The notes below the pieces were generated by a model, which did no database searches, was not told where the DNA came from, and worked only from the letters and a program-made list of their open reading frames with translations. A DNA stretch of 64,000 nt from Tubiluchus corallicola (Eukaryota; Animalia; Priapulida): positions 248,001 to 312,000 of the forward strand of contig JAQGDQ010000222.1 of assembly GCA_030141605.1 (NCBI GenBank). The letters run 5' to 3'. Shown here piece by piece: positions 6,201 through 9,200 of the stretch; the first letter of the stretch is position 1; each line of letters opens with the position of its first letter. Position numbers and translations under genes: made by a program.

Positions 6201-9200
6201 TCACAAATTCTGTTTTAAGTTTTTGACTTATATTCTGAGCTCTGCCTGTGGCAAATGAGCGGAAAAATCTGCAAATAAGTACGGTTTTACTGTTAGCATT
6301 TGAATCAAAAGCTGAATTTAAAAAAAGAACCTGGAAAATAACCTTAAAAATCGATGTGATTATCATGAATAGATCGAAAAAAATAGAAAAATAGATAAAC
6401 ATCACCACCAGTTGGTTCACCATCCATTACTCTAGTTAAGACGCTTTGGAGTTTGGATTTTATATATGGTCTGTGCGTCGGTAAAACAAGCAAGTCTTTG
6501 AATTTTTCTAAGTGTTAAGCCTTTACTTGCCGAAACTTCGACAGACAAAAAATATTGGGATGTTTGCTTTCCTGCAACGACTTCGCTTTTATGTTTTTGT
6601 GTGTATATTTTTGAAGAAGACTCTAATTAACTTCATTTTAACGCACATGATAGACTGATTAAATAGCTCCATCTAGGAAAAACTAAACATGGAGATCAAC
6701 TTGCGTTAAAATAGTTAATTCTGAAGTTTTCTTCTTATCTGAGCTTTATCTTAGGTTACGGGCTGGCAATAAATCGTTCGTTTTATTAATTAGCTAAACA
6801 CCTATTTATTCCTAACTTGTTGATTGTTCAGCAGTGTTAACAATATTGTGATCCCGCCTCACGATCGATATTGGGTTCATAATATTGTGAACTAAATGCA
6901 TAATGTGCATAATAACGTACATATATTATACCGTTTGTTAATTATCAAAACCTGTTTTAAGTTTGTTCCAGTCTCTTTAACACGATGGCCTTGGAAACTA
7001 CACAAACGTTTTATTCACACACACACACACACACACACACACACACACACACACACACACACACACACACACACACACACACACACACACACACACACAC
7101 ACACACACACACACACACACACACACACACTTCCATGATCAAGACATTGTAGTAATAATTATAGGTTATAATACTATTACATGAATGCGTGTCAGGTGCA
7201 GCTATTTCATTGTGCATTTGCATCGTAAAGACAATTTTTTATTCAAATTGCATCACATACATTTTATATCAGTCTTTATAAATTTTGAGTAGTTTTTAGA
7301 TTAATTTTTTTTCCTAACCTATATGCTTTGTTTTTTCGGACATCTAATTCAAGGTGAATTTTTTGTTTAGCTTCTAAGGTTGTCAAAAACGAAATTGGAA
7401 CGAACAGAAAGCCTATTGATGAATATATAGATAAAGTGTGATATGTGCTCAAGCGCAGTTTACCCAAAATGTGTTTAATTTATTGCTAACATCAGGCGAA
7501 GGTTTTGCTCTGTTTTGCTAATCTATTTTGAAGTTCATTCAATGATCATTTCATTACTTTTACACATTAATTGTCTCCGCTTAGATAACATTTATGTTTT
7601 TTGTACTAATATTTGCTTGATTTGCATCAAGCACTATCTGAGTCTCTTTTACAGGCCAATACGTGAGACTATACGTGTGGCTAGAACTGAGACGTCGACT
7701 CAAGTACTATATTGTCCAAATATTTTTACCCGCTGTCCTGATATCTGTGTGTTCCTGGGTGTCTTTCTGGATTGCTAACACGTCTGCGCCAGCCCGTGTC
7801 TGTTTGAGTGTGTTGACCGTACTGACAATGACGACTCTGATGTCCACCGTAAATTCACAGCTGCCTAAGGTAGGAAGGAACACCTAACGTTGACCTGCGA
7901 ATGTACGTGGCTCTTGTGTTACTAACCGGCCCGCTTTTGCTCTCTCTTCCAGGACAGTACGTTCGGCTTTATGTGTGGCTTGAACTTAGACGGCGCTTAA
8001 ACTACTACCTGATTCAGATATACCTGCCTGCATTTATCATAACCATTGTCTCTTGGGTGTCCTTTTGGTTGAACAGAGAGTCGACGCCCGCCAGGGTCGC
8101 TTTAGGTATCACCACGGTGCTGACGATGACGACGCTCATGTCGAACACCAATGCTCAGCTTCCAAAGGTAAAATACTGCTCACTAAACACAAATGCACCA
8201 CTCACGGATCGCATTTGATTTAATTGCAGGACAGTACATACGCCTGTACGTCTGGCTAGAATTTAGACGGCGTATAGGCTACTACCTGATTCAAATCTAT
8301 CTACCGGCCATACTGATTACGGTTATATCGTGGGTATCGTTTTGGCTAGCGAGAGAGTCGGCCCCTGCCAGGGTAGCATTGGGCGTAACCACAGTATTGA
8401 CCATGACGACGCTGATGTCCAACACTAATTCACAATTACCAAAGGTAAGAACCGCTGCACCACAAGTCGTCTATTGCTTGGTCTTGTCTCAATAGTGCAC
8501 GAAGATCACCCCACTGCAATGGCTGTGATATTGTGTTTGATGGTGGTATGACACTGTTTTATGATTTTTTCACATAGCTGTCATCGCTACCACCATAATA
8601 TTTCAACAGATTACTGCAGTTTGTCTGATCTTCGCCATGTCTTTCAGTAAATGTTTCCTAAGGTTAAATAAACCAGAAATTTCTGTCATTCTAAACTGAG
8701 GTCTTGCTTGCCTTCCTTTCTCTCTTCTCTCGGGGTAGATAATCATCTTCGTTGGCATTTTTATAATCAGTACTTTTTTTGCTCGTGGGTTTGCAGCTAA
8801 GTAAACCCATCCGTTCTCCTAAGAAGAATATTGTTGTTGAAATGGTGCGAAATTGTTAGGCCAGTCTGCACTTTCACATAATATGAAACCTTTAATATGA
8901 ACTGATTTATTAAAATTTAATACCGGACTGGCTTTTACTACTGCAAACATGAGGTAACCGAGAGAAAAGAAGAACTATACCTAATTTAATAGCTATGTCA
9001 GCTCATTTACGAACGTTGTTGGCTAAAGTACGCTCAAATCTCACTTGCAAATTCGCCATTTTGATAAAAGTTGTTTGTCAAGAGCAAGCGGTGTACGTGT
9101 TGTGTGTGCAGTGTTGTGTTCAGCAAACGAAAATTGGAACGTTCCTGGCAAAGTTCCAAATTTCACAACACGATGATTTTAGTACATTGGCAAACGAAGA

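What the first reader, a model, noticed from the sequence alone, without database searches (positions are those of the whole stretch)
7655..8444. Three interchangeable pore exons: the beta10-M1-M2 exon of an Rdl-like channel is triplicated and looks mutually exclusive
Seen: three tandem 215-nt exons (7655-7869, 7953-8167, 8230-8444), each an intact ORF with a canonical AG/GT pair, identical phase (1 in, 0 out) and many synonymous differences, separated by only 83 and 62 nt. Since 215 mod 3 = 2, including 0, 2 or 3 copies breaks the frame into the single M3 exon; only one copy works. Known: insect Rdl has mutually exclusive exons 3a/b and 6a/b but a constitutive M1-M2 exon, and C. elegans unc-49 swaps whole C-terminal halves. 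Inference: this gene swaps only the pore module and keeps M3/M4 constant. With the exon-6 pair that gives at least 2x3 = 6 subunits mixing ligand-site and pore variants. I know of no described Cys-loop GABA receptor with this layout.
Basis: partly seen in the sequence, partly recalled or inferred. Interest (0 to 1): 0.93.

Follow-up and report, generated by a model that had tools for sequence, protein, structure and literature searches.

The report
Swappable pore exons in GABA receptor
An invertebrate Rdl-type chloride-channel gene carries three old, intact copies of the exon that lines its pore, of which only one fits the reading frame at a time, so it likely makes a standard pore and a variant predicted to resist channel blockers, a layout already published for tick Rdl and likely evolved again here.

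Summary
Three 215-nt beta10-M1-M2 exons (A 7655-7869, B 7953-8167, C 8230-8444) are intact; only single inclusion keeps the frame into M3. Synonymous sites are near saturation, pN/pS is 0.15-0.29, and DNA runs from two studies carry the triplet. One RNA-like run shows C joined to M3 (10 nt past the junction) and an upstream exon joined to exon 6a; A, B and 6b were not seen. The novelty claim fails: Ixodes Rdl has a published triplicated M2-containing exon giving three transcripts (PMC9219234), insect nAChR alpha6 has 2x3 ligand-by-TM2 exons, and Diaphorina citri Rdl models show 2+3 copies. What is new: A, B and C group together next to Priapulus (98/90), so the triplication is likely independent; the module stops before M3; and there are two pore types, not three. 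B and C keep 2'A/6'T, while A has 2'C/4'S/6'L at the blocker site. A 39-bp intronic duplex after C (0 of 120 shuffles reach it) is a candidate docking site.

The parts
3096..3242 (+). Exon 6a equivalent (loop F to loop C region), 147 nt
   Evidence: AG/GT and frame; RNA-like run X6 contig enters the window exactly at 3096 with 595 nt of upstream sequence whose end reads in frame as the end of the Cys-loop exon and is absent from the window
3296..3442 (+). Exon 6b equivalent, 147 nt, 53 nt after 6a
   Evidence: 31 of 48 aa identical to 6a, pN/pS 0.31; branch-point-like CTAAC 30 nt from the 6a donor; no RNA contig laid on it
7655..7869 (+). Pore exon A (beta10-M1-M2), divergent pore: 2'C, 4'S, 6'L, 17'T, 18'V
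   Evidence: PF02932 E 8e-14; pN/pS 0.29 vs B and 0.26 vs C; no RNA contig laid on it
7953..8167 (+). Pore exon B, standard Rdl pore (2'A, 6'T, 9'L; 5'I, 20'A)
   Evidence: PF02932 E 2e-19; pN/pS 0.15 vs C; no RNA contig laid on it
8230..8444 (+). Pore exon C, standard Rdl pore, least changed copy
   Evidence: PF02932 E 9e-19; end branch 0 in the tree; X6 contig 8294-8446 continues with 8 letters equal to 10063-10070, i.e. C spliced to M3
8449..8493 (+). Intronic arm just after the exon C donor (candidate selector)
   Evidence: 39 predicted base pairs (34 Watson-Crick, 5 G-U) with 9070-9121, -48.5 kcal/mol; 0 of 120 shuffles reach it at search level
9070..9122 (+). Candidate downstream docking site
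   Evidence: Best of 49 windows for the stretch after each of A, B and C; significant for C only (p 0.008; A 0.15, B 0.20); A+B jointly at this window p 0.04, post hoc
10061..10309 (+). Constitutive M2-M3 loop/M3 exon, 249 nt, phase 0
   Evidence: PF02932; single copy in window; donor after 10309
13932..14207 (+). Last coding exon with M4 and stop
   Evidence: PF02932 positions 202-233; 48 of 91 aa identical to Priapulus caudatus P0125

Best explanation
This Rdl-type anion-channel gene has three tandem, intact beta10-M1-M2 exons of which only one keeps the frame, and it likely splices them one at a time onto constant M3 and M4 exons to give a standard pore (B or C) or a variant pore (A) predicted to bind pore blockers poorly and to gate differently. 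Shown: exon anatomy, the frame rule, purifying selection between copies, presence in DNA from two studies, and one C-to-M3 junction. Inferred: use of A and B. Exclusivity is likely enforced by three layers: any double inclusion or full skip makes an early stop (shown in silico; decay of such transcripts is inferred); the 62-nt B-C intron has its best branch-point candidate only 37 nt from the donor (steric block, inferred); and intronic stretches after each exon may compete for one downstream site at 9070-9122 (strong for C, weak for A and B). The triplication likely arose within this lineage, probably a priapulid or close relative, independently of the tick and psyllid triplets. B and C likely tune M1 and the M1-M2 loop rather than the pore. 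A changes 2' and 6', two of the three residues that form the picrotoxin/cyclodiene site.
For: Frame simulation: 3 of 8 combinations stop-free, all single inclusions. pN/pS 0.29 [0.18-0.44], 0.26 [0.15-0.39], 0.15 [0.08-0.25] with pS 0.69-0.75 and no stop or indel in any copy. X1 and X3 contigs span the triplet; X6 shows C to M3 and upstream exon to 6a. Tree of 34 rows, 71 columns: A+B+C 98/90, with Priapulus P0038 96/90, apart from tick and psyllid copies. Precedent with three transcripts in Ixodes (PMC9219234). Blocker site is 2', 6', 9' (PMC10482695). 6'L occurs in 18 of 284 M2 segments among the 266 fetched proteins, including the second Ixodes copy; 4'S in 4 and 2'C in 2, so each residue of A occurs in other gene models. 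Duplex statistics.
Against: No RNA contig on A, B or 6b in the one RNA-like run (13 million letters; a blank there is not evidence of silence). The C-to-M3 junction has only 10 letters on the M3 side, below the tool's 31-letter bar for bridging. No A-like orthologue turned up: no candidate, best single-stretch hit 66%, so conservation in relatives is untested. No fetched M2 has all three of 2'C, 4'S, 6'L; A's branch is long (0.55) and could reflect partial relaxation. The tree rests on 71 columns, and P0038 may be a paralogue. The docking window is GU-rich and attracts shuffled selectors too (best window for 23-75% of shuffles); the C arm starts at intron position +5 and could instead mask the C donor. 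The A-B intron's branch point at 56 nt is borderline for a steric block.
Confidence: 0.72

Rival explanations
1. All three exons are used, but the point of the cassette is M1 and the M1-M2 loop (assembly, desensitisation, modulators); A's pore changes do not alter blocker sensitivity in any way that matters to the animal.
For: Most differences lie outside M2: 9, 7 and 5 in pre-M1/M1 and 5, 3 and 2 in the M1-M2 loop, against 6, 5 and 1 in M2. 6'L is the normal residue in some single-copy channels such as Strongyloides P0134-P0137. No blocker in this animal's environment is known to me.
Against: A changes both 2' and 6', the same positions changed in the divergent copies of the tick (2'S; 6'L) and psyllid (2'N) triplets and in duplicated insect Rdl genes.
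Confidence: 0.15
2. Only C, or C plus one other, is used today; A and/or B are spliced rarely or have recently fallen out of use.
For: Only C was seen in RNA-like contigs. C is the least changed copy and has the strongest pairing to the downstream site. No orthologue of A was found.
Against: With synonymous sites near saturation, an unused exon would be expected to have stops, indels or lost splice sites; A and B have none, and pN/pS is under 0.45 at the upper bound.
Confidence: 0.1
3. The triplet is an assembly artefact or collapsed alleles.
For: Nothing found; some public models with repeated M1 segments are identical copies and look artefactual (P0150, P0029).
Against: Copies are only 64-74% identical and single contigs from two studies run through A, B and into C.
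Confidence: 0.01

Closest known systems
Ixodes Rdl exon 7a/7b/7c (Rispe et al. 2022, PMC9219234; passages and supplementary file 8 read)
   Same: Rdl-type GABA receptor; one M2-containing exon triplicated in tandem; three alternative transcripts differing at 2'. The listed exon lengths (455, 458, 461 nt, my subtraction) are also 2 mod 3. One Ixodes copy carries 6'L like copy A.
   Different: The tick exon covers about 154 aa including M3 and part of the M3-M4 loop; here it is 71 aa and M3 is constant. The tick figure lists one exon 6; here there are two. The copies do not group with tick copies. Tick copies are about 1.3 kb apart, here 62-83 nt.
Insect nAChR alpha6 exons 3a/3b and 8a/8b/8c (PMC2064938, PMC6393475; passages read)
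   Same: Cys-loop subunit with two ligand-site exons times three TM2 exons; all six combinations found by RT-PCR in Tribolium.
   Different: Cation channel; exon 8 holds only part of TM2; the ligand-site exon is loop D, not loops F/C.
Diaphorina citri Rdl gene models KAI5701071.1 and KAI5729962.1 (P0001, P0140; annotation only)
   Same: Two exon-6 copies and three tandem beta10-M1-M2 copies, one with 2'N: the same 2x3 layout.
   Different: The unit is 95 aa and includes most of M3, so copies concatenate in frame. Separate clade. Seen only as proteins; splicing not checked; my search listed 2 papers, neither on this by title or abstract start.
Nematode unc-49 (gene models P0003, P0006, P0010) and duplicated insect Rdl genes (PMC10482695; parts 1-2 of 10 read)
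   Same: Several pore versions from one locus or family; changes concentrate at 2' and 6'.
   Different: unc-49 repeats whole C-terminal halves through M4; insect cases are whole-gene duplications.
Downstream docking-site splicing in 14-3-3 zeta, Mhc, MRP1 (as reviewed in PMC6071210; passages read)
   Same: One site in the intron after the cluster predicted to pair with stretches after each variable exon.
   Different: Here only one arm is significant, and there is no conservation or mutational test.

Membership tests
Cys-loop anion channel | PF02932 M1-M4 region | tested here: met
   all three exons and M3 above cut-off; M4 exon E 8e-6
Cys-loop anion channel | PAR motif before M2 (PMC2064938) | tested here: met
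   -2'P, -1'A, 0'R in A, B and C
Cys-loop anion channel | Cys-loop in the extracellular domain | tested here: inconclusive
   exon lies upstream of the window; only the second Cys and its tail are read from the 30-letter loose end
Rdl / invertebrate GABA receptor clade | Nearest relatives are Rdl-type subunits | tested here: met
   best single-copy hits are tardigrade, Priapulus and arthropod GABA receptor beta/Rdl proteins
Rdl / invertebrate GABA receptor clade | One-to-one orthology with insect Rdl | tested here: inconclusive
   tree on 71 columns only; N-terminal exons are outside the window
Rdl / invertebrate GABA receptor clade | Gated by GABA | not testable with these tools
   needs expression
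Tandem mutually exclusive exon cluster | Homologous tandem exons of equal length and phase with splice sites | tested here: met
Tandem mutually exclusive exon cluster | Only single inclusion gives a full protein | tested here: met
Tandem mutually exclusive exon cluster | Each variant seen singly in mRNA | tested here: inconclusive
   C to M3 only, 10 letters past the junction; A and B not covered
Tick Rdl exon 7a/b/c triplet (orthology) | Same exon boundaries, including M3 | tested here: not met
   215 nt ending before M3 versus 455-461 nt
Tick Rdl exon 7a/b/c triplet (orthology) | Copies pair with tick copies in a tree | tested here: not met
   A+B+C form one group, 98/90
Docking-site/selector splicing | Several selectors complementary to one docking site | tested here: inconclusive
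   C p 0.008; A 0.15; B 0.20 at search level
Docking-site/selector splicing | Conservation and compensatory changes across species | not testable with these tools
   no related genome held; no close relative among 33 loci

The most novel reading that the evidence does not exclude
Triplicating the Rdl pore exon is a recurrent solution, reached separately in a priapulid-like animal, ticks and psyllids, and each time one copy rewrites the 2'/6' blocker site. Here a competing-RNA-pairing switch would choose between a standard pore and a 2'C/4'S/6'L blocker-insensitive pore in an animal with no expected contact with land-plant terpenoids, which would point to an unrecognised class of natural GABA-channel blockers or to a gating role for these changes that the plant-toxin explanation has hidden.
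Probability: 0.22. Interest if true: 0.7.

Novelty: new variant of a known kind. Interest (0 to 1): 0.45.

Why it matters
The layout is known, so this is not a new kind of system. Its value is comparative. It adds a likely independent origin outside arthropods, and the psyllid models add another, to a single published case. The published explanation for 2'/6' variants in duplicated Rdl is exposure to plant terpenoids (PMC10482695, PMC9219234); a parallel case in a probable priapulid tests that idea. Because A, B and C share the same M3, M4 and ligand domain, they are a natural controlled set for asking what M1 and the 2', 4', 6' residues do.

Tried and rejected
No whole genome is held, so upstream exons and paralogues could not be examined. 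No RNA holder was listed by the run search; X6 was added by species label. No X6 contig lay on A, B, 6b or M3 proper; this is no evidence of silence. Run X5 touched only repeat-like intron pieces. Search for A-like short proteins: no candidate; phmmer over cluster representatives: no hit above 66%. 33 metagenome loci: 1 of 33 had two full copies of the segment (L022), and that is a tandem whole-gene duplication. An upstream docking site was not supported: all four queries against the upstream intron fell within their 12-shuffle nulls. The two X6 differences in exon C (8324 T>C, 8351 G>A) are synonymous and are not A-to-G, so no editing is claimed. I recalled that PMC10482695 described Rdl exon duplications; a text search found 0 occurrences of 'exon', so that recollection was dropped. 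Paper searches: 0 papers; 2, off topic by listing; 1; 146 hold 3 of 4 terms, 20 listed, none on this by listing; 0; 527, 15 listed, none containing 'priapulid'; 2, both the Ixodes work. The Varroa RDL paper is not held, so functional data on natural 6' variants were not read. Supplementary files 1 and 10 of PMC9219234 are images and could not be read; panel B of file 8 (the exon alignment) is also an image. Rows left out of the tree: 6 amphioxus segments and 4 segments under 60 aa; two Ixodes rows in the tree have mis-modelled N-termini.

Full report
Observation. Each gives 71 stop-free codons that match PF02932 above its cut-off. tblastn over the 64 kb finds these three copies only, one M3 exon (10061-10309) and one M4 exon (from 13932). 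Upstream lie two 147-nt copies of the exon that insects call exon 6 (3096-3242, 3296-3442), 53 nt apart. The earlier exons are outside the window and no whole genome is held.

Frame and selection. Behind either exon 6, I tested all 8 subsets of A/B/C into M3: the 3 single inclusions are open, the other 5 stop early. Including both exon-6 copies stays in frame, so that pair needs another mechanism; a branch-point-like CTAAC 30 nt from the 6a donor suggests a steric block (inference). Copies are 64-74% identical in DNA with pS 0.69-0.75, yet keep 50, 53 and 59 of 71 residues; pN/pS is 0.29 (A-B), 0.26 (A-C) and 0.15 (B-C), upper bootstrap bounds at most 0.44. The copies are old and have been held by selection on protein.

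Real DNA, partial RNA. Contigs from run X1 (7332-8285) and from run X3 of another study (7662-8313) each span A, B and the start of C; X3 also spans both exon-6 copies. Run X6 (RNA by guess, 13 million letters) gave one contig per stretch. One lies on 8294-8446 and continues with 8 letters equal to 10063-10070, which is the C-to-M3 junction, though with only 10 letters on the M3 side. The other enters exactly at the 6a acceptor (3096) after 595 nt that are not on the stretch; the last 30 read in frame as the end of the Cys-loop exon (my reading) and are absent from the window. So X6 holds spliced transcripts, and 6a and C are used. A, B and 6b were not covered, which says nothing either way.

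What the copies change. In M2 (-2' to 19', 22 positions) B and C differ once (5' I/V) and both keep 2'A, 6'T, 9'L. A differs from C at 2'C, 4'S, 6'L, 17'T, 18'V. So there are two pore types; B versus C mainly changes M1 and the M1-M2 loop. Positions 2', 6' and 9' form the picrotoxin/cyclodiene/fipronil site (PMC10482695). Among 284 M2 segments in the 266 fetched proteins, 6'L occurs 18 times, 4'S 4 times and 2'C twice, never all three together. Reduced blocker binding by A is a prediction, not a result.

How exclusivity may be set. Frame removes double inclusions and skips, presumably through decay (inference). The best branch-point candidate in the B-C intron is 37 nt from the donor and in the A-B intron 56 nt, so a steric block is plausible for B-C and borderline for A-B. 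A scan for long-range pairing found that 8449-8493, just after the C donor, pairs with 9070-9121: 39 pairs, 34 Watson-Crick and 5 G-U, -48.5 kcal/mol, best of 1178 windows in the gene by about 10 kcal apart from its own neighbours; none of 120 shuffled queries reached it over all 49 intron windows; it appears in the fold of 8430-9140. The stretches after A and B also prefer this window but are not significant alone (p 0.15, 0.20; jointly at this window 0.04, post hoc), and the window attracts shuffles too. This resembles the downstream docking sites of 14-3-3 zeta, Mhc and MRP1 (PMC6071210). I put the competing-selector model at about 30%; the C duplex could also be a lone stem or mask the C donor.

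Origin. The closest named proteins are from Priapulus caudatus: P0125 shares the M3-M4 loop (64% over 81% of the M3 exon; 48 of 91 for the last exon), and P0038 is 82% identical to C. The host is probably a priapulid or near relative, not that species (inference). In a 34-row, 71-column tree A, B and C form one group (98/90) next to P0038 (96/90), away from tick and psyllid copies. A short alignment limits this, but the different exon boundary agrees with an independent origin.

Comparison with what is known. Rispe et al. 2022 (PMC9219234; passages, supplementary file 8 text) describe a triplicated exon in Ixodes Rdl, exons 7a/7b/7c, giving three transcripts with or without the 2' Ala-to-Ser change. 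The tick exon is about 154 aa and includes M3; Ixodes models show 2'S in one copy and 6'L in another. Insect nAChR alpha6 has two exon-3 and three TM2-containing exon-8 alternatives with all six combinations detected (PMC2064938; PMC6393475). Diaphorina citri Rdl models from separate assemblies hold three 95-aa beta10-M1-M2-M3 units, one with 2'N, and P0140 also holds both exon-6 copies; my searches found no paper on it, but most subscription journals are not in the library. unc-49 models repeat whole C-terminal halves.

Verdict. Real, well maintained, and very likely a mutually exclusive cassette; a new variant of a known kind. New here: a likely independent origin outside arthropods, a module that stops before M3, a copy with 2'C/4'S/6'L, and a candidate docking duplex. 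Use of A and B, conservation in relatives and all pharmacology remain untested. Interest 0.45.

Noticed in passing
P0001, P0140 (Diaphorina citri gene models): Psyllid Rdl models contain three tandem beta10-M1-M2-M3 units, the middle one with 2'N and -2'V, plus both exon-6 copies in P0140; likely an unreported mutually exclusive cassette.
   Followed up: partly
P0017, P0164, P0184 (P0017 is Branchiostoma belcheri): A glycine/GABA-like model holds three divergent beta10-M1 units ending inside M2; looks like another tandem exon cassette.
   Followed up: no
P0157, P0265 (unnamed ENA proteins): Two divergent beta10-M1-M2 units ending at the same LPK/LPR boundary as in this window, separated by a short read-through stretch.
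   Followed up: no
L022:334-5902: Two Rdl-like genes in tandem, both with 2'G.
   Followed up: partly
window 443-2312: High-copy interspersed repeat in the intron before exon 6a (depth over 100 times the flanks in X2).
   Followed up: no
window about 8500-8635: Long GU-rich hairpin predicted inside the loop of the C duplex; a 15-nt 80% match also links exon B M2 (8116-8130) to 8580-8594, possibly chance.
   Followed up: no
window 24685-26523 (-): 613-codon open frame that looks like a LINE reverse transcriptase (by eye).
   Followed up: no
window 35840-38488 (-): Three overlapping frames that look like a broken THAP/P-element-type transposase (by eye).
   Followed up: no
window 17659-21269 (-), 35182-35493 (+), 43500-50140 (-), 62666-63010 (-): Exons resembling alpha-galactosidase/NAGA, NUBP, a TPR-SET-MYND protein and a RapGAP (names by eye from recall).
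   Followed up: no
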